Origin: a virus
Lineage: Duplodnaviria; Caudoviricetes
Direction: 5' to 3' (one strand)
DNA length: 64,000 bases
IMG/VR virus record: IMGVR_UViG_3300028364_000013
How positions within the stretch are numbered: the first letter of the stretch is position 1; each line of letters starts with the position of its first letter. Made by a program: the position numbers and the translations under genes. The notes under the pieces were generated by a model that was not told the DNA's origin, searched no databases, and saw only the letters and a program-made list of their open reading frames with translations. This document shows positions 21,276 to 61,016 of this stretch, piece after piece.

Positions 21276-22754
21276 TTAATTAAATTCGTTTTCAACTGGC
21301 GTTTTAGTGTAATCATAAACTTCGCCAAGCGTTTTTCTCATGTCACCTATATTCAAAACCACATCATTTGTTGTAAATTCACAAGGATGTTTATATCCAG
21401 CAGCATGTGTTACTTGAATTATATCTTTCTTTAAGGTATTAATAAAATTTCCAACTCTATCACCCTTCTCGCTAACATTAACCCCTTTTTCCAACCACCA
21501 CTTATGAGTTGCAATCCCAGCTGGACAATTTCCAGTATGACATATTTGCGCTTGAATGCATCCTGCCGAAATCATTACTTCTCTCGCAATGTTGATAACA
21601 TCAGCTCCCATTGCAAATGCTTTAGCAGCTCTTGTTGGATGCCCCAATTTTCCGCTGGCAATCCAAACCATATTATCCATTGCTCCTCTGAGTTGAAATA
21701 TCTTATAGACAGATGTGAATGCATCATCCAAAGGAAGACTCATGTTATCTGCAAACGCTGCAGGAGCAGCTCCAGTTCCACCCTCTCCGCCATCAATTGT
21801 TATAAAATCTGGACCGACACCTCTTGTCATTTTCTGAGCAAGCTCATGCCAAAATTCTAATTTACCGACAGCGGACTTGATTCCAACTGGCAGCCCTGTT
21901 AGCCTCGCAATGTCTTCAATTAAAGCAATCAGCTCATCAACATTTGAAAACGCACTGTGGTATGCGGGGGAATTAACATCTTTCCCCTTTTCAATACCTC
22001 TTATGTCTGCTATTTCTTTTGTTACCTTCTTCCCTGGCAACATTCCACCTTTTCCTGGCTTCGCACCTTGAGATAATTTAATCTCAATCATTTTGATGTT
22101 CTTGCCCGTGTCTATAAGGTGCAGTAATTTATCCATGCTAAATTGTCTGTTCCCATCCCTATCTGTAGTGCCGCATCCAAAATACCCAGTTCCAAAGTGA
22201 AATACAACATCTGCACCTCCTTTGTGATATTTAGAATATCCACCTTCGCCAGTATTGTGATAAGAATTTGATTTATATGCCCCTCTGTTATTTGCTTCAG
22301 TTGCTCTTTTGCCAAGAGAACCATAACTCATCGCTGAGATATTAATTACCGAATTAGGTCTGTATGGCTTTTCTCTTCTCATCCCAATTGTCTTAGCACA
22401 AGGAAGTACGTCTGGAGCAATTGCGTTAATTGTGTTGTTAATGTTCGTTGGAAACGCATTTGTTTTAATAAAGAAGTTTCCACTTTTATCGAAGTCCATG
22501 TCGGAACCAAATCCAGTCAGATTGTTCTGCTTCTTTGCGCTTGCATAAATATAGTTTCTCCAAACCCTATTAAAAGGTCCCTCCTCTCTATTGTTAGCAA
22601 CCCAGTACTGTCGAAGTTCTGGTCCAATCTTCTCAAGGAAATACCTTAACCTCCCAATCAATGGGAAATTGCTTTTGATTGTATGTTTTCTATTAAAGGT
22701 GTCGTAAACCACCAGCAACAATAACAATCCCAATATAGTGTATAATATGTTCAT
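21276..22754 (-). CDS. FMN-binding glutamate synthase family protein
   Basis: SAMSYGSL, NTGEGG, EIKLSQGAKPGKGG, IDGGEGGTGAAP, CHTGNCPAGIATH. Confidence 0.92.
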   Translation of the reverse strand: MNILYTILGLLLLLVVYDTFNRKHTIKSNFPLIGRLRYFLEKIGPELRQYWVANNREEGPFNRVWRNYIYASAKKQNNLTGFGSDMDFDKSGNFFIKTNAFPTNINNTINAIAPDVLPCAKTIGMRREKPYRPNSVINISAMSYGSLGKRATEANNRGAYKSNSYHNTGEGGYSKYHKGGADVVFHFGTGYFGCGTTDRDGNRQFSMDKLLHLIDTGKNIKMIEIKLSQGAKPGKGGMLPGKKVTKEIADIRGIEKGKDVNSPAYHSAFSNVDELIALIEDIARLTGLPVGIKSAVGKLEFWHELAQKMTRGVGPDFITIDGGEGGTGAAPAAFADNMSLPLDDAFTSVYKIFQLRGAMDNMVWIASGKLGHPTRAAKAFAMGADVINIAREVMISAGCIQAQICHTGNCPAGIATHKWWLEKGVNVSEKGDRVGNFINTLKKDIIQVTHAAGYKHPCEFTTNDVVLNIGDMRKTLGEVYDYTKTPVENEFN

Positions 22755-22810: not shown

Positions 22811-24352
22811 CTACGCTAATTCCTTAATTTTATTAAGTAGAGCTTCAATTCTTGCTTTAGTTTCTTTAGAACCAATTACATACATTACATCTGGCAGTTG
22901 TGGGCCAGAGGCACCTCCACAAATAGCCACTCTAAGCATTGGCATTATTTTACCAACACCAATGTTCATATTACCAGAGATGTGCTCAAGTTCATACCTA
23001 ATGTTCTTGGGTATCCAGTCGTATTCCTCGAAATTACTCATGAAGTCATCAGCTGCAAATACATTCATAACCTTTATAAACTCTTCAACGTTCTTCATCT
23101 TGATTTCACCTTCAAGAGTAGGAGTATTATAAATGTAGCTCAAGCTATCTTTTAGTTCGTGAGAAAATTCAACACGCTCAACAGCCATACTTGCAATTAA
23201 ATCAAGTTTGTCATGGTCCATAGACAAAAGGAAGTCTTCTGGCATATCAGTCATTTCCGACAGAATAGAGTCAGCATCCCTCGACCTTAAGTAATGAGAA
23301 TTGAAGTTCATCAATTTCTTCTTATCGAACATTGCACCAGCCTTATTAACACTTTCAAGACTAAATAAATCAATCATTTCTTTGATTGACATTATTTCTA
23401 CATTGTTCTTAGGATTCCAGCCAAGAAGAACTAAGAAGTTTAAAAGAGCATCTGGCTCGTAACCTTCATGCTTAAACCCAGTTACATGAGCTTTTTTGTC
23501 CTCATGAGTGATATAGTCCCAAGTCAACGGGAAAATAGGGTAGCCATACTTATCTCCATGTCTCTTGCTTAATTTCTTTCCATCATCTCCAAGAAGAAGT
23601 GGTAAGTGAGCAAAAATAGGAGCATCCCATCCAAAAGCTCTATAAATAAGAACATGAAGTGGCGTAGCAGATAACCACTCTTCACCACGAATAACATGAC
23701 TAATTTCCATTAACTTATCATCAACAATATTTGCAAGATGATAAGTAGGGAGTCCGTCAGAAGATTTCCAGATAACTTTGTCATCAAGGTCTTTCGTATT
23801 GAACTTAACCCATCCTCTAACTTCATCATGAAACTTAATATCTTCAGCTCTTGGCATTTTAAACCTAATTGTATACGCTTCTCCAGCATCAATCTTAGCT
23901 TTAGCATCACTGGCAGACATTGTTAGTGAGTTTTTCATTCTTTCTCTAACAACGCCAGTGTAACCACCTTTAACTCCAGCAGCCTCAAAGTCATCTCGCA
24001 TCTTTGTCAAGTCTTCTTTTGTATCAAATGCATAATAAGCATTTCCAGACTCAACAAGCATTTCAACATGCTCTTTGTAAATATCTTTTCTTTCAGATTG
24101 GATGTATGGCCCATGGTCACCACCTATGCCGTAACCTTCGTCTGGACTTATTCCAAGCCACTTAAGAGAGTCTGTTACATAATCAATTGCTCCATCAACC
24201 TCTCTGCTTGAGTCGGTATCTTCAATCCTTAAAATAAAATCGCCCCCATGCTTCTTGGCAAAGAGGTAATTAAATAAAGCAGTTCTCACGCCACCTATAT
24301 GCAAAGGTCCCGTGGGACTTGGTGCAAATCTTACTCTTATTTTCTTATCCAT
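22811..24352 (-). CDS. gltX: glutamyl-tRNA synthetase
   Basis: RFAPSPTG, HIGG, RIEDTD, IRGEEW, KLSKR. Confidence 0.97.
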   Translation of the reverse strand: MDKKIRVRFAPSPTGPLHIGGVRTALFNYLFAKKHGGDFILRIEDTDSSREVDGAIDYVTDSLKWLGISPDEGYGIGGDHGPYIQSERKDIYKEHVEMLVESGNAYYAFDTKEDLTKMRDDFEAAGVKGGYTGVVRERMKNSLTMSASDAKAKIDAGEAYTIRFKMPRAEDIKFHDEVRGWVKFNTKDLDDKVIWKSSDGLPTYHLANIVDDKLMEISHVIRGEEWLSATPLHVLIYRAFGWDAPIFAHLPLLLGDDGKKLSKRHGDKYGYPIFPLTWDYITHEDKKAHVTGFKHEGYEPDALLNFLVLLGWNPKNNVEIMSIKEMIDLFSLESVNKAGAMFDKKKLMNFNSHYLRSRDADSILSEMTDMPEDFLLSMDHDKLDLIASMAVERVEFSHELKDSLSYIYNTPTLEGEIKMKNVEEFIKVMNVFAADDFMSNFEEYDWIPKNIRYELEHISGNMNIGVGKIMPMLRVAICGGASGPQLPDVMYVIGSKETKARIEALLNKIKELA

Positions 24353-28235: not shown

Positions 28236-29216
28236 TCATTTTCCATCTCTTGATTCTTTGTTGAGTTTATATAAATCTTCCGCTAAGGTATGAATTTTTT
28301 CTGACCAAGTAATCTTTTCTCTCCAAGGAATTGCATTTAATCCATAATATGCTCCTGCAATCTGTCCATAGACAGCTCCAGTTGTATCTGTGTCATCTCC
28401 AAGAGAAACAACTTTTTTAAGACCTTCTTTGTATGAATCAGTATTCAAAAAAGCCCAAAGAGCAGCTTCCAATGTGAGCACACAATATCCATCACCACTA
28501 ATTTTGTCTGATAAATAACCAGAATACTTCATCTCCTTGATGTCTTCTATTTTTCCATTATTATGACAACCATACTTGGAATACATCTCTTGATAATAAT
28601 TCTTTCCATTTTCATCGAAAAGATATTCAAATTTCAAAATTCTCGTCTTATCTCTTTCTCCAGAAAGTATTTTGTCAATAATTGCCCCCATAAGCATGGT
28701 GCATTCTATTGATTGACTCGATGGGTGTGTCATTCTTGATTGCTCAGCGCATGATGCCAGGACCGAATTTACATTACCATGAAGAATCATTGGAATGGCT
28801 CCCATTCTCATAAGAACCCCATTTCCTGCAGCTTGAGTGTCTTTTACATATTCTCTACCTTGAGTCATGTTAAACCACCCAAGAGCTTTCCTTGTTGCTC
28901 CTCCAATGTCGAAGCACTCTCCAGTAACAGAATTATACCCTTGTTGCCACCAGTTGATGTATTTCTTCATCTGGTCACGAGGGTCCCAACCTTTCTCAAC
29001 TAATGATTCTGCAAGACAAAGAGCCATTGACGTGTCATCAGTCCAATCTCCTGGTTGAAGCTTAAACGGTCCGCCTCCAACAATTTCATCTGGCAGCTCG
29101 TTTTCATCTGGCATTTGATTTCTACCTCTAAATTCGTATGTGGTTCCATAGGCATCGCCTACAGCAAGACCAACCAAGCAGCCCATTACCATATCTTTCT
29201 TTCTATCTTCTGTCAT
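28236..29216 (-). CDS. ADP-ribosylglycohydrolase
   Basis: AVGDAYG, WTDDTSM, GNGVLMR, GDDTDTTGA. Confidence 0.95.
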   Translation of the reverse strand: MTEDRKKDMVMGCLVGLAVGDAYGTTYEFRGRNQMPDENELPDEIVGGGPFKLQPGDWTDDTSMALCLAESLVEKGWDPRDQMKKYINWWQQGYNSVTGECFDIGGATRKALGWFNMTQGREYVKDTQAAGNGVLMRMGAIPMILHGNVNSVLASCAEQSRMTHPSSQSIECTMLMGAIIDKILSGERDKTRILKFEYLFDENGKNYYQEMYSKYGCHNNGKIEDIKEMKYSGYLSDKISGDGYCVLTLEAALWAFLNTDSYKEGLKKVVSLGDDTDTTGAVYGQIAGAYYGLNAIPWREKITWSEKIHTLAEDLYKLNKESRDGK

Positions 29217-31210: not shown

Positions 31211-31879
31211 TTATTTTTCATATGACTTGAGCCATTTTCTAATAGCATTATCAGACACGCCATACTTTCTGCCAGTGGCAGAATACCCTAATTCGTCTAT
31301 TTCCTGTTTAAGTTGTGCAAACGGAGGTCGTTTAACTATTCTTTTTTTAAAATCAGATTTTTCCCTAATACTTGGGTCTTTTTTTTGTTTTGGTTTTGCA
31401 TTATGTTTACCGCAGTGAGTTGGAAGTGTTGCATTACAATTTGCGCAAACAATTCTGAGATTTTCAAGTCGATTATCATTATAGACCCCATTGATATGGT
31501 CGATAATTAAACTCATCTTCTTTCCCATCCAAATCTCGCCCTGGCCACAACCTGACATCTCGCATTTTTTTTCCTTTAAGCCCTCTTCATATAATCTCTT
31601 TTTTAAATGAGTCCTTCCATATGTTGAATCTTCGATAAGTATTTCTGAAAGAGGTTTCTTTCTTCTTAAAGCATTAGCGCCTAATGACCTTTTATATATT
31701 TCATCTCTTGTCTCAAAATGAGATGTATCAATACAGTGCATTTTTACATATTTGTGAAATACTTTATAGTTTCCACCTGCAGCTCTTAAATCTAAGTTTT
31801 TTAGCGCCCCTTTTATTGACCTTGCACTCTTTATTGCTTTCTCAAAATTTTCTTTTGAGTATCTTTCTTGTCTATTCAT
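31211..31879 (-). CDS. HNH homing endonuclease
   Basis: IDHING...DNRLENLRIVCANCNA; C-terminal HTH (YGVSDNAIRKW). Confidence 0.88.
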   Translation of the reverse strand: MNRQERYSKENFEKAIKSARSIKGALKNLDLRAAGGNYKVFHKYVKMHCIDTSHFETRDEIYKRSLGANALRRKKPLSEILIEDSTYGRTHLKKRLYEEGLKEKKCEMSGCGQGEIWMGKKMSLIIDHINGVYNDNRLENLRIVCANCNATLPTHCGKHNAKPKQKKDPSIREKSDFKKRIVKRPPFAQLKQEIDELGYSATGRKYGVSDNAIRKWLKSYEK

Positions 31880-31944
31880 ATTTATAAATAGACAATAAAA
31901 AAGGAAACACTATTGTTCGAACCTAATAACGTGTTTCCTTCTTG

Positions 31945-32020
31945 CTGCTCAGGAAGGCTTCGAACCTCCAAAAACTCCACATTCAAAGTGTGGCGACTTT
32001 ACCAATTTGTCCACTGAGCA
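31945..32020 (-). tRNA. tRNA-Gln(UUG)
   Basis: TGCTCAG/CTGAGCA acceptor, CCACA-CTTTGAA-TGTGG, TTCGAAG T loop. Confidence 0.9.
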
Positions 32021-32026
32021 ATTTAG

Positions 32027-32100
32027 TTGTAAGAGAAGGCTTCGAACCCTCAAATTCTCGATTCAGAGTCGAGTGACTTTACCAGTTTGTCTATCCTACA
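32027..32100 (-). tRNA. tRNA-Gln(CUG)
   Basis: CTCGA-CTCTGAA-TCGAG anticodon arm, full cloverleaf. Confidence 0.9.
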
Positions 32101-32166
32101 ATATCGCACACATTACTAATATCCCAACCCCTGCAGAGGTTGTCGTTCATAAAGCATATGCATACT

Positions 32167-32252
32167 TGGTTGTACAGGTAGGGCTCGAACCTACACGCCT
32201 TTTGGGCACCCGCTTCAAAGGCGGGCGAATCTGCCAGTTTCTCCACTGTACA
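32167..32252 (-). tRNA. tRNA with Gln anticodon UUG and a Leu-like long variable arm
   Basis: CCCGC-CTTTGAA-GCGGG, variable arm TGCCCAAAAGGCGT, A73, encoded CCA. Confidence 0.85.
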
Positions 32253-32293
32253 ATATTACACTTTACTATCAATGGTCAATAGTAAAGTGTTTG

Positions 32294-32364
32294 TTTCGGG
32301 GAGAAGATTCGAACTTCTATGGTCACTGTCAAAAAGTGAAATCCTGCCATTAGACGACCCCGAA
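32294..32364 (-). tRNA. tRNA-Gln(UUG)
   Basis: TTCGGGG/CCCCGAA acceptor, TCACT-TTTTGAC-AGTGA. Confidence 0.85.
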
Positions 32365-32375
32365 ATATTAAACAC

Positions 32376-32407
32376 AAAAAAAAGCCTGAACGTTCAGTCC
32401 AGGCTTT
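32376..32407 (-). terminator. attenuator terminator of the Gln leader
   Basis: AAAGCCTGGAC-TGAAC-GTTCAGGCTTT, 8-U tract. Confidence 0.9.
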
Positions 32408-32436: not shown

Positions 32437-32517
32437 TCAGGCACCACCAGGACTGTCCTCTTTCGAAGATTGTTGCTGCTGTTGCTGCTGTACGTTTATG
32501 TTAATTACTGTTTTCAT
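32437..32517 (-). CDS. poly-Gln leader peptide MKTVININVQQQQQQQSSKEDSPGGA
   Basis: 26 codons with CAG CAG CAA CAG CAG CAA CAA; terminator 30 nt downstream, then four Gln-anticodon tRNAs. Confidence 0.9.
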   Translation of the reverse strand: MKTVININVQQQQQQQSSKEDSPGGA

Positions 32518-32865: not shown

Positions 32866-33786
32866 ATGAACAAAGAATCTAAAACAGAAAAGTTTATTCA
32901 AAAAGCAATTTGTGCTCATGTAGATAGATATGACTATTCTCTATCTAAATATTCAAATTCTAAAATTAAAGTTATAATTATATGCTCAAAGCATGGTCAG
33001 TTTAGTGTAACTCCAGATAATCATATAAATAAAAAATCTGGGTGCCCTAAATGCAATGGTGGGGTTAGATTATCTATCAATGAATTCATTGAGCAATCTA
33101 ACAAATCTCACAATAGCAAGTATGATTATTCTTTAGTAGAATATAAAAATAACGCCACTAAAGTGACAATAATATGCCCAGAGCATGGAAAATTTAAACA
33201 GAGGCCTCAAGACCACATGAACAAACTTGGATGCTCTAAATGTGGCATTAAAAAAAGAGCTAATTCAAGAACTTCAAATGCAGAAGAATTTATTAAAAAA
33301 GCAATTTATACTCATGGAGACAAATATGATTATTCAAATGTTGAGTATAAAAAATCAAACTTAAATGTAACAATAATATGTAATCAACATGGTGAATTTC
33401 AACAAAAACCAAATGACCACCTTAGCAATAAAAATGGCTGTCCTATCTGTTGTGAATCTAAAGGAGAAATTGCAATAAGAAATTTCTTAACAGAAAATTC
33501 AATAAAATTTATACCTCAAAAAAGATTCAAAGATTGTAAAGACAAAAGAACACTTCCTTTTGATTTTTATTTGCCAAAATTAAATCTTTGCATAGAATAT
33601 GATGGCATTCAGCATTTTAATAAAAAAAACAGATACTATTCAGATGACAGAAAGAAAAAAGATGAAATCAAAAATCAATATTGCACAGGCATAAATGATA
33701 AACCTAAAATTTTAAGAATATCTTACCTTGAAATTGATGATATTAATCAAATTCTAACAAACTCTGTCAAACGACAAAAACAATAA
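32866..33786 (+). CDS. homing endonuclease with DUF723-like repeats and a Vsr/DUF559-like nuclease domain
   Basis: Three YDYS...ICxxHG.F repeats, SKGE, LPFDFYLP, CIEYDGIQH. Confidence 0.8.
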   Translation: MNKESKTEKFIQKAICAHVDRYDYSLSKYSNSKIKVIIICSKHGQFSVTPDNHINKKSGCPKCNGGVRLSINEFIEQSNKSHNSKYDYSLVEYKNNATKVTIICPEHGKFKQRPQDHMNKLGCSKCGIKKRANSRTSNAEEFIKKAIYTHGDKYDYSNVEYKKSNLNVTIICNQHGEFQQKPNDHLSNKNGCPICCESKGEIAIRNFLTENSIKFIPQKRFKDCKDKRTLPFDFYLPKLNLCIEYDGIQHFNKKNRYYSDDRKKKDEIKNQYCTGINDKPKILRISYLEIDDINQILTNSVKRQKQ

Positions 33787-34124: not shown

Positions 34125-34796
34125 TTTAAATTCCTTCAACAAGAATTTGATACAGCTAAAAGCGATGACAAACTACCTTGTCAATGCTCAGTTTGCAAAG
34201 AAACTTTTTATCTAACAAAACACCAAACACAAAGAGTATTAAATCCAAATCAACAAAAAAATGGAAATTTTTGTTCTAACAAATGTAGAGCAAAAAACAA
34301 CACTAAAAAAGAAACAATAAATTGCACAAACTGTGATGAAGAATTTGAAAAACAATATAGCCAAATTAAAAAATCAAAAAACCACTTTTGCTCTCTCTCT
34401 TGTAATGCAACCTACAACAACAAACACAAAACCCACGGCACTCGTAGGTCAAAACTTGAAGTTTGGCTGGAGGAGCAGTTAACCAAGCTTTATCCAAATA
34501 TCCAAATAGACTTCAACAAGAAAAATACTATAGAGTCTGAACTTGACATCTATATACCTTCATTAAACCTTGCTGTTGAGCTCAATGGAATCTTTCACTA
34601 TGAACCTATATACGGAGTTGATAAACTCCAGCAGATTCAAGAGAACGACATCTCCAAATCCAAGGCATGTCATGACTTAAAAATCGACTTATGCACCATC
34701 GACACAAGTGGTCAAAAATACTTCAAAGAATCTACTTCCAAAAAATATCTTGACATCATAAATAATATTATCAAAGAACGCATGTTAACCTCTTAG
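34125..34796 (+). pseudogene. start-less Zn-finger PD-(D/E)XK homing endonuclease (not in ORF track)
   Basis: 224-codon open frame after an in-frame TAG with no upstream ATG; CSVC, FCSNKC, CTNC, FCSLSC, ELDIYIP, VELNGIFHY. Confidence 0.75.
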
Positions 34797-34852
34797 CCAG
34801 CTTTACCTGTTTCCAACAACCGCTACGTGGAAGCGGGTTAACTTTGGTTGTC

Positions 34853-34943
34853 TACTCCTGGTCGGACTCGAACCGACAACGTTTACCTGCATGGGTATCA
34901 GATTTTAAGTCTGATGCGTTTCAACCAATTTCGCCACAGGAGC
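34853..34943 (-). tRNA. tRNA-Leu(UAA)
   Basis: TCAGA-CTTAAAA-TCTGA, long variable arm, A73. Confidence 0.9.
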
Positions 34944-34952
34944 ATTTGTTTG

Positions 34953-35046: not shown

Positions 35047-35595
35047 TTAATCTACAGCTTTATATTTTCTAAAAGTCATACTCACTCTTGGGCCACAATC
35101 TCTATCGTGCTTAGGAATCCTGTGCAAATTTGTATCTTGGAATCCTGGAGGCATATAGAATAAAGAACCATTTTCTAACTTTCTCTTATTCTCTTCTGGA
35201 ACTACTCCTTTTTCTCCTTTTAACTTCCACCAAATTTCTCTTTCAGCCCCAAATGATACAACCGCTATCCCATCATTATGGTCAATTGAATGAGAGTCGT
35301 CAGCGTGCCATCCTAATCCATTTCTTGAGTTCATATATAAATTCAAGAAGCAAATATCCAAACTTGTTCCCAACTTTTTATTAACCTTTTCCATTATTTC
35401 CCTAATCGCAGGCAACATTGGTGTTGATTTATAAGTTGGAGCTCCACTGTGGTCTAAGTAAGAGTATTCAATGTCAGAATCTGCCATAAAACACTCTCTT
35501 CTCATCTTCGTCTCATCAATCCAACTAACATCCCTTACCAAGGTGTCAATAAAATCTTCATTGACCAAATCATTTATGTATACTAACTTTTTCAT
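35047..35595 (-). CDS. AlkB-like 2OG-Fe(II) dioxygenase
   Basis: NLY, GWHADD, HRIPK, RVSMTFR. Confidence 0.88.
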   Translation of the reverse strand: MKKLVYINDLVNEDFIDTLVRDVSWIDETKMRRECFMADSDIEYSYLDHSGAPTYKSTPMLPAIREIMEKVNKKLGTSLDICFLNLYMNSRNGLGWHADDSHSIDHNDGIAVVSFGAEREIWWKLKGEKGVVPEENKRKLENGSLFYMPPGFQDTNLHRIPKHDRDCGPRVSMTFRKYKAVD

Positions 35596-35609: not shown

Positions 35610-35682
35610 TAACTCCACCCAGATTCGAACTGAGACTTTAACGTTCGTAGCGTTAGGTGCTAATCCATTACACCATGGAGCT
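35610..35682 (-). tRNA. tRNA-Arg(ACG)
   Basis: TAACG-CTACGAA-CGTTA. Confidence 0.9.
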
Positions 35683-35985
35683 ATGAATTTCAAAGTGACA
35701 ATTAGCACAAACCAACATACACTTATCTAATTCTTCTTTTATTTTTTTATCAAACTTATGCGACTTCATTTTACTTAAAGCAAAACCTTTTTCTTTTGGG
35801 TCAAGGTGATGAAACTGTAAAGCTCCAACATATTTATCATATCCACATTTTTCACAACAACCACCTTTGTATTCAACGCATTTAATTTTAAACTTTCTAC
35901 CACGTTCTCTACTCTCTTCTTTATATCCAAGAGCCTCTAAAATTATTGGAAGTGCTGATTCTGTGTAAAATATTCTCGGTTTCAT
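35668..35985 (-). CDS. HNH endonuclease
   Basis: YKGGCCEKCGY, LQFHHLDP, CMLVCANCHFEIH; probable start MKPRIF. Confidence 0.85.
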   Translation of the reverse strand: MKPRIFYTESALPIILEALGYKEESRERGRKFKIKCVEYKGGCCEKCGYDKYVGALQFHHLDPKEKGFALSKMKSHKFDKKIKEELDKCMLVCANCHFEIHSSMV

Positions 35986-36000
35986 ATTTAAAATTTTTTG

Positions 36001-36081
36001 TACAGATGACGAGAGTCGAACTCGCACGCCTTTCGGCACTGGTTTCTAAAACCAGCGTGTCTACCATTCCACCACATCTGC
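36001..36081 (-). tRNA. tRNA-Leu(UAG)
   Basis: CTGGT-TTTAGAA-ACCAG, variable arm TGCCGAAAGGCGT. Confidence 0.92.
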
Positions 36082-56595: not shown

Positions 56596-56608
56596 TTATA
56601 TTTTATTG

Positions 56609-56693
56609 AGGTCAGGGAGGGATTCAAACCCCCGATGGGCTTGCGCCTACAGATTTGCAGTCTGTCGTCTTCAATCACTCGAACCACCCGACC
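56609..56693 (-). tRNA. tRNA-Cys(GCA) with long variable arm
   Basis: ACAGA-CTGCAAA-TCTGT, variable arm GGC-GCAA-GCC, U73. Confidence 0.82.
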
Positions 56694-58225: not shown

Positions 58226-58323
58226 TGGACAATACGAGAATCGAACTCGTATCTCCAGTTTGCGCTATCCTGTGTGGTTGCACTTCATAGCCTTCACCGA
58301 TTTACCAATTAATCTAATTGCCC
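58226..58323 (-). ncRNA. tRNA-Ala-like RNA with an extended anticodon region
   Basis: G3:U70, A73, normal D and T arms, 47 nt instead of about 22 between them. Confidence 0.75.
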
Positions 58324-58328
58324 TTTTG

Positions 58329-58398
58329 TTGGTGTAGAGGGACTCAAACCCCCGACCCCCTGAATTACAGGTGCTCTAATCAACTGAGCTATACACCG
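58329..58398 (-). ncRNA. tRNA-like RNA with a shortened anticodon arm
   Basis: CCTG-TAATT-CAGG (4 bp, 5-nt loop), C1:A72, TGAT/TTTGAG elbow. Confidence 0.7.
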
Positions 58399-58442
58399 AA
58401 CTCTTCAATCGCCTTAAGTCGATTTCCGAGCTACTTAAGTAG

Positions 58443-58525
58443 TAGTGACGGTGGGAATTGAACCCACTTTGTACTTACGTACCCACGTTATCAGCGTGGT
58501 GCCTAAACCATCCAGCCCCGTCACT
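58443..58525 (-). tRNA. tRNA-Ile(GAU) with long variable arm
   Basis: CCACG-CTGATAA-CGTGG, variable arm GTAC-GTAA-GTAC, A73. Confidence 0.82.
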
Positions 58526-60930: not shown

Positions 60931-61016
60931 GGTGAAAGATGGGTTCTGACCCCACGACCTCCCGATTCACAGTCGGGCGCTCTACGACTTTCGTCTCCAG
61001 CTGAGCTACAATCACC
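60931..61016 (-). tRNA. tRNA-His(GUG) with an extra hairpin in the D loop
   Basis: G-1:C73, CCCGA-CTGTGAA-TCGGG, GAC-GAAA-GTC insertion, T loop GTCAGAA. Confidence 0.75.

What the first reader, a model, noticed from the sequence alone, without database searches (positions are those of the whole stretch)
32167..32252. Gln-anticodon tRNA on a Leu-like class II body
Seen: UUG anticodon, 14-nt variable arm TGCCCAAAAGGCGT almost identical to TGCCGAAAGGCGT of tRNA-Leu at 36001, 3-bp D stem, A73 and encoded CCA. Established: bacterial LeuRS largely ignores the anticodon and uses A73 and the tertiary core, and tRNA-Gln is normally class I. Inference: either a CAA-to-Leu missense tRNA that rescues Gln-starved ribosomes, or a Gln tRNA reshaped to evade host nucleases. 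It sits under the Gln attenuator.
Basis: partly seen in the sequence, partly recalled or inferred. Interest (0 to 1): 0.7.

Follow-up and report, generated by a model that had tools for sequence, protein, structure and literature searches.

The report
Phage glutamine tRNA on leucine-type body
A large lake phage of Bacteroidota carries a real glutamine-reading tRNA that has a glutamine-type acceptor end on the long-armed core normally seen in leucine tRNAs. It most likely still delivers glutamine, so it is an undescribed tRNA design and probably not a tool for mistranslation.

Summary
Window 32167-32252 (-) is an 86-nt tRNA with anticodon UUG, a 14-nt hairpin variable arm, a 3-bp D stem, A73 and an encoded CCA. 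It lies third in a row of four tRNA-Gln genes behind a poly-Gln leader and terminator.

The gene is a mosaic. Its D arm, variable arm and T arm are Leu(UAG)-type. Its acceptor stem (U1-A72, G2-C71) and anticodon loop are Gln-type.

A73 is not a leucine mark here. The phage GluRS points to Bacteroidota hosts. Five of five such genomes have GlnRS, and their tRNA-Gln genes carry U1-A72, G2-C71 and A73.

I found 28 distinct long-armed tRNA-Gln(UUG) sequences in phage contigs. Their stems covary. Their acceptor features match ordinary phage tRNA-Gln and differ from tRNA-Leu. They usually sit beside ordinary tRNA-Gln genes, and eight loci also have a poly-Gln leader upstream.

Best reading (0.62): a Gln-charged isoacceptor remoulded from, or recombined with, a Leu gene. 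A Leu or Tyr missense role is not excluded (0.14). The benefit is unknown; escape from tRNA-cutting defences is untested. There are no RNA or charging data.

This scan has noted long-armed phage tRNA-Gln before on other DNA. I found no paper describing it.

The parts
32167..32252 (-). Long-armed (class II-shaped) tRNA-Gln(UUG), 83 nt plus encoded CCA
   Evidence: ARAGORN; Rfam tRNA 44.7 bits; sequence read
32246..32252 (-). Acceptor stem 5' strand UGUACAG, giving U1-A72, G2-C71 and U3-A70 with 32171-32177
   Evidence: Acceptor-only profile scores Gln best (-15.7; next Phe -18.0). Same 1-72, 2-71, 3-70 and 73 as the phage's ordinary tRNA-Gln(CUG). Host tRNA-Gln share U1-A72, G2-C71 and A73.
32227..32243 (-). 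D arm GAGAAACUGGCAGAUUC (3-bp stem, A13.A22), Leu-type
   Evidence: Positions 8-26 match 19 of 20 bases of a phage tRNA-Leu(UAG) at L331:10229-10316. D-arm-only profile: Leu -20.6, Tyr -23.6, Gln -24.5.
32209..32225 (-). Anticodon arm CCCGC CUUUGAA GCGGG; anticodon UUG at 32216-32218
   Evidence: Loop is identical to the neighbouring ordinary tRNA-Gln(UUG) at 31944-32020, and to tRNA-Gln(CUG) except at position 34
32195..32208 (-). Variable arm UGCCCAAAAGGCGU: 3-bp hairpin, Leu(UAG)-type flanks UG...GU
   Evidence: Near-identical to the Leu(UAG) variable arm at 36000-36081. Folds as a hairpin; 2% of shuffles fold as well.
32178..32194 (-). T arm GUAGG UUCGAGC CCUAC
   Evidence: The 15-mer GGCGTGTAGGTTCGA (variable-arm 3' strand plus T stem-loop) occurs in phage tRNAs for Leu (49), Tyr (25), Asn (13, most long-armed) and Ser (9)
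32167..32170 (-). Discriminator A73 and encoded CCA
   Evidence: Read directly. A73 is the discriminator of five host-clade tRNA-Gln genes.
32293..32364 (-). Ordinary tRNA-Gln(UUG), first gene of the Gln row
32026..32100 (-). Ordinary tRNA-Gln(CUG), next gene downstream
31944..32020 (-). Ordinary tRNA-Gln(UUG) with a 7-nt variable loop, last of the row
32437..32517 (-). 26-codon leader ORF with seven consecutive Gln codons (CAG CAG CAA CAG CAG CAA CAA)
   Evidence: Similar poly-Gln mini-ORFs lie upstream of long-armed tRNA-Gln genes in seven other phage loci.
32376..32407 (-). Hairpin plus U-run (terminator-like) between the leader and the Gln tRNA row
   Evidence: Read directly
36000..36081 (-). 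tRNA-Leu(UAG), the in-genome look-alike for the variable arm

Best explanation
This is a working glutamine tRNA built as a mosaic. Its acceptor stem, discriminator and anticodon loop are Gln-type. Its D arm, variable arm and T arm are of the long-armed Leu(UAG) kind. It most simply arose from a Leu(UAG)-type gene by one anticodon change (A35 to U35) plus remoulding of the acceptor end, or by recombination between neighbouring Leu and Gln genes. It is transcribed with three ordinary Gln tRNAs behind the poly-Gln leader and terminator. The host GlnRS charges it with glutamine through U1-A72, G2-C71, A73, G10 and U35-G36, and the extra arm points away from that enzyme. It then reads CAA, and probably CAG, as glutamine. 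Shown here: the gene, its fold, the mosaic, conservation in other phages, and its place among Gln genes. Inferred: charging with Gln, and any benefit. One possible benefit is a second, differently shaped Gln decoder that survives host tRNA-cutting defences.
For: 1. The RNA is real and under selection. It scores 44.7 bits on Rfam tRNA. Across 23 distinct long-armed phage tRNA-Gln(UUG) sequences, 97.4% of stem cells pair and 18 of 20 pairs are compensatory. Of 28 variable regions, 23 form hairpins of 3 bp or more.
2. The acceptor end is Gln-type. The acceptor-only profile ranks Gln first. Long-armed Gln (n=28) have U1-A72 in 75%, G2-C71 in 68% and A73 in 39%. Ordinary phage Gln (n=68) have 79%, 63% and 49%. 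Phage Leu (n=146) have 6%, 18% and 94%.
3. The target has the same 1-72, 2-71, 3-70, 73, G10 and 37-38 as the phage's own tRNA-Gln(CUG).
4. Host context fits direct charging. The 80 best genomic matches kept for the phage GluRS (45-50% identity) are all Bacteroidota. Five of five such genomes have GlnRS at 711 bits or more, and one of five has GatB. Their five tRNA-Gln genes all carry U1-A72, G2-C71 and A73.
5. GlnRS should tolerate the arm. In the E. coli complex, GlnRS contacts G2, G3, G10, 34-38, A72 and G73 and no variable-region base (PMC5766645). A long-armed amber tRNA-Ser was switched to Gln identity by acceptor-helix changes alone (PMC9976931, glutamine identity section).
6. Gene neighbourhood is Gln. 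Twenty of 33 long-armed Gln genes have an ordinary Gln gene within 600 nt, and 4 have a Leu gene. Eight of 33 have a poly-Gln mini-ORF upstream.
7. In paired loci, the long-armed copy has G73 or U73 while all its ordinary partners have a different base in seven loci (six of them A73). The reverse never occurs. This fits avoidance of LeuRS and TyrRS, which need A73.
8. Cost of the alternative. CAA makes up 1157 of 52291 codons in long open frames, so a co-expressed Leu-charged reader would be costly.
Against: There are no expression or charging data. This copy combines A73, a Leu-type D arm with A14, A15, G18-G19 and A20a, U48 and a Leu-type variable arm. That is close to what E. coli LeuRS needs (A73 plus tertiary core, PMC9976931), so some leucylation cannot be excluded. 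TyrRS also uses A73 and U35. U3-A70 and A38 depart from the E. coli GlnRS set (G3-C70, U38). Identity rules for Bacteroidota GlnRS and LeuRS have not been measured. The profile classifier is crude (resubstitution accuracy 44-85%), and over the whole body Gln ties with Tyr (-64.7) with Leu close behind (-66.1). The nearest-neighbour minimum-energy fold is not the cloverleaf (-27.6 against -23.0 kcal/mol). My set of phage relatives was fished with patterns that fix CUUUGAA and GGTTCGA, so the counts are biased.
Confidence: 0.62

Rival explanations
1. It is a missense tRNA. Because LeuRS (or TyrRS) ignores or only partly reads the anticodon, the Leu-type core with A73 is charged with Leu (or Tyr). 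The tRNA then inserts that residue at CAA/CAG, possibly only when the Gln leader opens the operon.
For: The D arm matches a phage tRNA-Leu(UAG) at 19 of 20 bases. The variable arm is Leu(UAG)-type. The core profile ranks Leu first, then Tyr. A73 is present, whereas the closest orthologues (L001, L002) have G73. There are precedents: nev-tRNAs are leucylated in vitro (PMC3333845), and allo-tRNAs insert Ser at Leu codons (PMC5389517).
Against: The acceptor stem is remoulded to the Gln type in this gene and in 75% of its phage counterparts, which LeuRS does not require. A73 is simply the host tRNA-Gln discriminator. All main positive GlnRS elements are present. Many orthologues carry G73 or U73, which blocks LeuRS and TyrRS. 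CAA is a common codon. The genes cluster with Gln genes and not with Leu genes.
Confidence: 0.14
2. It does not act in translation. It is either a decoy that soaks up a host tRNA-directed nuclease or modification enzyme, or a neutral by-product of recombination in a tRNA array rich in homing endonucleases that has not yet decayed.
For: HNH-type endonuclease genes interleave the tRNA blocks, which could shuffle tRNA modules. Three other Gln tRNAs already cover CAA and CAG. The predicted minimum-energy fold is not the cloverleaf. Phage tRNAs are known to counter tRNA-cutting defences (PMC11555353, PMC11464382).
Against: All four stems covary across 23 distinct sequences from many phages, and the anticodon loop and the Gln-type acceptor features are kept. 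The sequence is identical in three other lake samples. The encoded CCA and a canonical 7-nt anticodon loop argue for a decoding tRNA. A pure relic would not recur in 28 distinct forms.
Confidence: 0.1
3. Same function (Gln-charged) but a different origin. It is an ordinary phage tRNA-Gln that gained a hairpin in its variable loop, and the Leu likeness is convergent.
For: The whole-body profile ranks Gln at least equal to Leu. In one search the segment 8-25 (positions 8-9 plus the D arm) matches 14 of 19 bases in own-genome Gln paralogues and 13 of 19 in own-genome Leu(AAG). Several other long-armed Gln tRNAs (L032, L054) have clearly Gln-type D arms, so arms have been added to Gln bodies elsewhere.
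Against: The D arm matches a Leu(UAG) at 19 of 20 bases. The variable arm and T arm of the orthologue in L001 are identical to those of a Leu(UAG) in L189. The related L003 form shares its anticodon stem and variable arm exactly with this phage's Leu(UAG) and differs by A35U.
Confidence: 0.2

Closest known systems
Canonical bacterial tRNA-Gln (E. coli GlnRS identity set; Bacteroidota tRNA-Gln genes)
   Same: UUG anticodon with U35 and G36, A37, G10, U1-A72 and G2-C71. A73 matches Bacteroidota tRNA-Gln. The gene lies among ordinary tRNA-Gln genes.
   Different: It has a 14-nt hairpin variable arm in place of a 5-nt loop, and a Leu-type D arm. It has U3-A70 and A38 where E. coli has G3-C70 and U38. 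The anticodon loop CUUUGAA differs from the host's UUUUGGU at positions 32, 37 and 38.
Bacterial and phage tRNA-Leu(UAG)
   Same: The D arm, variable arm (UG-stem-GNRA-like loop-stem-GU), T arm module and A73. The anticodons differ by one base (UAG against UUG).
   Different: The acceptor stem is U1-A72, G2-C71. Phage Leu tRNAs have G1 paired with C or U at 72, usually with C2-G71. The anticodon reads Gln codons. The gene sits in a Gln cluster.
Nematode nev-tRNAs (PMC3333845, PMC4300185)
   Same: A long-armed, Leu-like tRNA carrying an anticodon of a class I family.
   Different: nev-tRNAs keep the Leu acceptor identity and are leucylated in vitro. Here the acceptor end is remoulded to the family named by the anticodon. 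The setting is a phage, and a cognate-codon leader lies upstream.
Allo-tRNAs of bacteria and phages (PMC5389517)
   Same: Long variable arm with varied, non-cognate anticodons. Also found in phage tRNA clusters.
   Different: Allo-tRNAs have 8/4 or 9/3 acceptor and T branches and Ser identity. This tRNA has the normal 7/5 layout and no Ser marks (no G1-C72 with G73, and a short 3-bp arm).
Alloacceptor tRNA remoulding / anticodon shift (PMC4783518, PMC3923123)
   Same: [quoted passage not shown] One anticodon base separates the two families.
   Different: Remoulding is described in mitochondria and eukaryotic nuclei, mostly between class I bodies. Here it crosses the class I / class II shape boundary in phages, and the acceptor stem is rewritten as well.
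Engineered amber tRNA-Ser switched to Gln identity (cited in PMC9976931, glutamine identity)
   Same: A long-armed tRNA body is accepted by GlnRS once the acceptor helix is made Gln-like.
   Different: That was a laboratory construct in E. coli with a CUA anticodon. This is a natural sense-codon tRNA.
Phage tRNAs that rescue infection from tRNA-cutting defences (PMC11555353, PMC11464382; Septu cuts the tRNA-Tyr variable loop, PMC13096335)
   Same: Phage-encoded extra copies of a tRNA that differ in sequence or shape from the host copy.
   Different: Those cases rest on experiments and mostly on anticodon-loop differences. No nuclease is known for this case, and the idea is untested.

Membership tests
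tRNA (Rfam RF00005) | Cloverleaf with conserved D and T loop bases, scoring above the gathering score | tested here: met
   44.7 bits against 29; ARAGORN call; covariation
Bacterial tRNA-Gln (GlnRS substrate) | Anticodon YUG with U35 and G36 | tested here: met
   UUG at 32216-32218
Bacterial tRNA-Gln (GlnRS substrate) | U1-A72 and G2-C71 | tested here: met
   UGUACAG/CUGUACA; the same in five host-clade tRNA-Gln genes
Bacterial tRNA-Gln (GlnRS substrate) | G3-C70, G73 and U38 (E. coli rule, PMC9976931) | tested here: not met
   The target has U3-A70, A73 and A38. Bacteroidota tRNA-Gln also have A73, and some have A3-U70. The phage's tRNA-Gln(CUG) has U3-A70, A73 and A38. The E. coli rule therefore does not transfer unchanged.
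Bacterial tRNA-Gln (GlnRS substrate) | G10 | tested here: met
   G10-C25
Bacterial tRNA-Gln (GlnRS substrate) | Short (class I) variable loop | tested here: not met
   14-nt hairpin arm
Bacterial tRNA-Gln (GlnRS substrate) | Charged with glutamine | not testable with these tools
   Needs aminoacylation assays
Bacterial tRNA-Leu (LeuRS substrate) | A73 | tested here: met
   A73. It is uninformative here because host tRNA-Gln also have A73.
Bacterial tRNA-Leu (LeuRS substrate) | Long variable arm and Leu-type D arm and tertiary core | tested here: met
   D arm 19 of 20 identical to a phage Leu(UAG); core profile ranks Leu first. Tertiary pairs are inferred from sequence only.
Bacterial tRNA-Leu (LeuRS substrate) | Leu anticodon and membership of a Leu isoacceptor set | tested here: not met
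   The anticodon is UUG. The acceptor stem is unlike the 146 phage Leu tRNAs. The gene lies in a Gln cluster.
nev-tRNA / allo-tRNA type missense tRNAs | The parent family's acceptor identity is kept, so charging follows the body and not the anticodon | tested here: not met
   The acceptor stem scores as Gln, not Leu or Ser. Actual charging was not tested.
Alloacceptor-remoulded tRNA | [quoted passage not shown] | tested here: inconclusive
   The core is closer to Leu, the acceptor is closer to Gln, and the whole body is a near tie

The most novel reading that the evidence does not exclude
The tRNA is a conditional missense adaptor. Only when ribosomes stall on the poly-Gln leader does the phage switch on a UUG-anticodon tRNA whose Leu-type core and A73 let LeuRS (or TyrRS) charge part of the pool. 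Starved CAA/CAG codons would then be read through with Leu or Tyr at the price of statistical proteins. A less radical but also undescribed reading has a probability of about 0.3: phages systematically graft acceptor ends and anticodons onto Leu or Ser cores to make shape-variant tRNAs that escape tRNA-cutting defences.
Probability: 0.08. Interest if true: 0.85.

Novelty: new variant of a known kind. Interest (0 to 1): 0.55.

Why it matters
The split between short-armed and long-armed tRNAs (Leu, Ser, bacterial Tyr and Sec) is one of the most constant features of translation. A conserved family of natural phage tRNA-Gln genes that crosses this split would show three things. GlnRS, EF-Tu and the ribosome accept such bodies in nature. 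tRNA genes in phage arrays change amino-acid family by anticodon shift plus acceptor remoulding. The discriminator base must be read against the host clade, since it is A73 in Bacteroidota tRNA-Gln. The design also offers natural chassis for engineered orthogonal tRNAs. If the extra arm protects against tRNA-cutting defences, it would be a new counter-defence principle. Charging assays would settle whether any natural mistranslation occurs.

Tried and rejected
- RNA evidence: no RNA holder is listed for this stretch. Only DNA contigs could be laid, so nothing can be said about expression.
- Phage GluRS as charger: it is a bacterial-type GluRS at 460.8 bits. It has Arg aligned to T. thermophilus Arg358, which I recall as the mark of discriminating enzymes. 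The alignment confidence there is only moderate. Neither GatB nor GlnRS is in the 195-kb record. I therefore rejected this route as the likely one.
- TAG recoding, prompted by a tRNA(CUA) elsewhere in the genome: reading TAG as sense adds fewer long frames than reading TGA or TAA as sense. There is no sign of recoding.
- Seryl identity: rejected, because of U1-A72, A73 and a short 3-bp arm.
- Thermodynamic folding alone does not return the cloverleaf. The same is true of this phage's tRNA-Leu(AAG), so I did not count it against the gene.
- Literature searches for phage or bacterial long-armed tRNA-Gln found no description. The library lacks most subscription journals, so this is not proof of absence.
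- Complex prediction and structure tools were not used, because they cannot decide tRNA charging.

Full report
**What is there**

ARAGORN finds 22 tRNA genes in the window, all on the minus strand. They include a row of four Gln-anticodon genes at 31944-32364. The third gene in transcription order, 32167-32252, is 86 nt long.

Rfam's tRNA model matches it at 44.7 bits against a gathering score of 29, with E 2.4e-7. This is the same score as the phage's tRNA-Leu(AAG). Read directly, its parts are:
- acceptor UGUACAG/CUGUACA
- U8 and G9
- D arm GAGAAACUGGCAGAUUC, with three pairs and an A13.A22 mismatch
- anticodon arm CCCGC CUUUGAA GCGGG
- variable region UGCCCAAAAGGCGU
- T arm GUAGG UUCGAGC CCUAC
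- A73 and an encoded CCA

That includes the near identity of the variable arm to UGCCGAAAGGCGU of tRNA-Leu(UAG) at 36000-36081. Upstream of the row lie a 26-codon ORF with seven consecutive Gln codons (32437-32517) and a hairpin with a U-run (32376-32407).

**The genome and its host**

The window is part of a 195-kb IMG/VR virus record, estimated 78% complete, with 40 to 46 tRNA genes on one strand. It has 34% G+C and shows no sign of stop-codon recoding.

The phage encodes a bacterial-type GluRS (window 22811-24352) and a MetRS. All 80 best genomic matches kept for the GluRS, at 45-50% identity, are Bacteroidota. This agrees with host notes made earlier in this scan.

I checked five of those genomes: two Flavobacterium, Mariniflexile, Maribacter and Draconibacterium. 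All five have a full GlnRS at 711-745 bits against a cut-off of 426, and only one has GatB. The phage record has neither GlnRS nor GatB. In this host clade, tRNA-Gln is therefore charged directly by GlnRS.

**A73 is not a leucine mark here**

Five tRNA-Gln genes from four of those genomes all begin U1-A72, G2-C71 and all have A73. Two of the phage's own ordinary Gln tRNAs also have A73.

The ordinary tRNA-Gln(CUG) shares every position of the classical Gln identity set with the long-armed gene: U1-A72, G2-C71, U3-A70, A73, G10, A37 and A38. The E. coli rule of G73, G3-C70 and U38 (PMC9976931) does not carry over unchanged to this clade.

**A mosaic gene**

I compared the gene with other phage tRNAs region by region.
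- Its positions 8-26 match 19 of 20 bases of a phage tRNA-Leu(UAG) (L331:10229-10316) and of a long-armed tRNA-Asn(GUU) (L238:4722-4806).
- The 15-mer that joins its variable arm to its T arm (GGCGTGTAGGTTCGA) occurs in phage tRNAs for Leu (49), Tyr (25), Asn (13, most long-armed) and Ser (9).
- The orthologue in the 635-kb phage LR745206 (L001) has a variable arm and T arm identical to those of a Leu(UAG) in L189.
- A related form in L003 shares its anticodon stem and variable arm exactly with this phage's own Leu(UAG). Within that span it differs only at position 32 and by A35U.

I then built simple position profiles from 1040 distinct phage tRNAs:

| Region scored | Best families (log score) |
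|---|---|
| D arm | Leu -20.6, Tyr -23.6, Gln -24.5 |
| Core (D arm + anticodon stem + T arm) | Leu -43.3, then Tyr -44.2 |
| Acceptor stem | Gln -15.7, next Phe -18.0 |
| Whole body | Gln -64.7, Tyr -64.7, Leu -66.1 |

The classifier is crude, with 44-85% resubstitution accuracy, so this is moderate evidence. The same split appears in the two other long-armed oddities of this window. tRNA-Cys(GCA) at 56608-56693 has a Cys-type acceptor on a Ser-type core. tRNA-Ile(GAU) at 58442-58525 has an Ile-type acceptor on a Ser-type core.

**A recurrent phage design**

Pattern scans of IMG/VR gave 28 distinct long-armed tRNA-Gln(UUG) sequences. On an alignment of 23 of them, 97.4% of stem cells pair and 18 of 20 pairs show compensatory changes. 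No shuffle of 500 reaches this, and sliding the partners drops pairing to about 44%. Twenty-three of the 28 variable regions fold into hairpins.

Their acceptor features follow ordinary phage tRNA-Gln and not tRNA-Leu:

| Set | n | U1-A72 | G2-C71 | A73 |
|---|---|---|---|---|
| Long-armed Gln | 28 | 75% | 68% | 39% |
| Ordinary phage Gln | 68 | 79% | 63% | 49% |
| Phage Leu | 146 | 6% | 18% | 94% |

Twenty of 33 such genes have an ordinary Gln gene within 600 nt, and only 4 have a Leu gene that close. Eight of the 33 loci, including this one, have a short ORF with a run of Gln codons upstream.

In loci that hold both kinds, the long-armed copy has G73 or U73 while all its ordinary partners have a different base in seven loci (six of them A73). 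The reverse never occurs. The numbers are small, and some loci share the same sequence. The direction still fits selection against LeuRS and TyrRS, both of which need A73.

My scans fixed CUUUGAA and part of the T loop, so these counts are a biased sample.

**How it most likely works**

GlnRS reads the acceptor end, G10 and the anticodon loop. In the E. coli complex the bases within 3.3 Å are G2, G3, G10, 34-38, A72 and G73, and none lies in the variable region (PMC5766645). A long-armed amber tRNA-Ser became a Gln acceptor after acceptor-helix changes alone (PMC9976931).

The target offers the host-type acceptor end, G10 and U35-G36. I therefore expect host GlnRS to charge it and expect it to read CAA, and probably CAG, as Gln, alongside its three neighbours and under the same leader-controlled transcription.

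The origin is most simply one of two routes. One is a Leu(UAG)-type gene changed by A35U plus acceptor remoulding. The other is recombination between adjacent tRNA genes in an array interleaved with HNH endonuclease genes. Why the phage keeps it is not shown. Phage tRNAs can rescue infection from tRNA-cutting defences (PMC11555353, PMC11464382), and one defence cuts a variable loop (PMC13096335). A shape-variant backup is therefore plausible but untested.

**What speaks for the rivals**

This copy, unlike its closest orthologues (G73 in L001 and L002), keeps A73 together with a Leu-type D arm and variable arm. E. coli LeuRS needs little more than A73 and the tertiary core (PMC9976931), and TyrRS uses A73 and U35. 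Partial mischarging cannot be excluded. The published precedents for long-armed tRNAs with foreign anticodons, nev-tRNAs (PMC3333845) and allo-tRNAs (PMC5389517), are charged according to their body.

Three points argue against a missense role. The acceptor end has been rewritten to Gln. Other copies have G73 or U73. CAA makes up 2.2% of codons in long frames, so mistranslation would be costly.

The phage GluRS has Arg aligned to T. thermophilus Arg358 (moderate alignment confidence), and I recall this as the mark of discriminating enzymes. No amidotransferase is at hand, so the GluRS route is unlikely.

**Other samples**

Contigs from three other lake-water runs carry the tRNA unchanged. One salt-lake contig differs by C16U in the D loop and by one spacer base, at low depth. 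No RNA run holds the stretch.

**Novelty**

I found no paper describing long-armed tRNA-Gln in phages or bacteria, but the library is incomplete. This scan has already noted long-armed phage tRNA-Gln and related cases on other genomes. I checked the recurrence myself.

This case adds four points:
- the region-by-region mosaic
- the link to Leu(UAG)
- the finding that A73 is the host's own Gln discriminator
- the repeated placement behind poly-Gln leaders

I class it as a new variant of a known kind: a tRNA-Gln isoacceptor and an instance of alloacceptor remoulding that crosses the class I / class II shape boundary.

Noticed in passing
window 56608-56693 (-) and 58442-58525 (-): Two more long-armed tRNAs with class I anticodons, Cys(GCA) of 86 nt and Ile(GAU) of 84 nt, each with a short stem and a GNRA-type loop. 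Profiles give a Cys or Ile acceptor stem on a Ser-like core, the same mosaic as the Gln gene.
   Followed up: partly
L001, L002, L005, L032, L070, L085, L088 (upstream of their long-armed tRNA-Gln genes): Short ORFs with runs of Gln codons lie 107-323 nt upstream of long-armed tRNA-Gln genes in seven other phage loci, for example MKTNFVQQQQQQQTLNKGSGIAMS and MNNLVQQVQQQQINLMIDWTRIG. The Gln leader design is therefore not unique to this phage.
   Followed up: partly
L238:4722-4806 (-): A long-armed tRNA-Asn(GUU) shares the D arm (one mismatch), the variable-arm type and the T arm with the target, but has an Asn-type acceptor (UCUGCCG...G73 CCA). The same core appears to be reused for two amide amino acids.
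   Followed up: partly
window 31944-32364 compared with L327-L333: Three of the phage's four Gln tRNAs have C32 and A37-A38 in the anticodon loop, and the fourth has U32, A37 and C38. Bacteroidota tRNA-Gln have U32 or C32, G37, and U38 or A38. The phage copies therefore differ from host copies in the loop as well.
   Followed up: no
window 32195-32225 (-): The loop and 3' strand of the variable arm (AAAGGCG) are complementary to CGCCUUU, which spans the anticodon-stem 5' strand and the loop up to U35. The nearest-neighbour minimum-energy fold uses this pairing instead of the cloverleaf (-27.6 against -23.0 kcal/mol). The same complementarity exists in L001.
   Followed up: partly
G000:C1:73284-73356 (outside the window): A tRNA with a CUA (amber-reading) anticodon, although reading TAG as sense lengthens open frames less than reading TGA or TAA as sense. 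There is no sign of TAG recoding.
   Followed up: partly
window 21276-22754 (-) and 22811-24352 (-): A protein with a glutamate-synthase FMN domain (PF01645, 254 bits) sits directly downstream of the phage GluRS (TIGR00464, 461 bits). This is a Glu-related gene pair in a phage.
   Followed up: no
window 35047-35595 (-), 35668-36039 (-), 31211-31879 (-), 32866-33786 (+): An AlkB-like 2OG-Fe(II) oxygenase and HNH or other nuclease-like ORFs are interleaved with the tRNA genes. One HNH ORF overlaps the 5' part of tRNA-Leu(UAG).
   Followed up: no
window 34784-34852 (-): A sub-threshold match to the HDV-like ribozyme family RF02682 (35.9 bits against 44, E 5e-4) lies directly downstream of tRNA-Leu(UAA) at 34852-34944.
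   Followed up: no
window 58226-58323, 58329-58398, 60931-61015 (-): Rfam tRNA matches of 98, 70 and 85 nt that ARAGORN did not call (G000 113719-113816, 113644-113713, 111027-111111). The long ones may be further long-armed or intron-bearing tRNAs.
   Followed up: no
window 28236-29216 (-): An ADP-ribosylglycohydrolase family protein (PF03747, 240 bits) lies a few kb downstream of the tRNA block on the coding strand (lower window coordinates).
   Followed up: no
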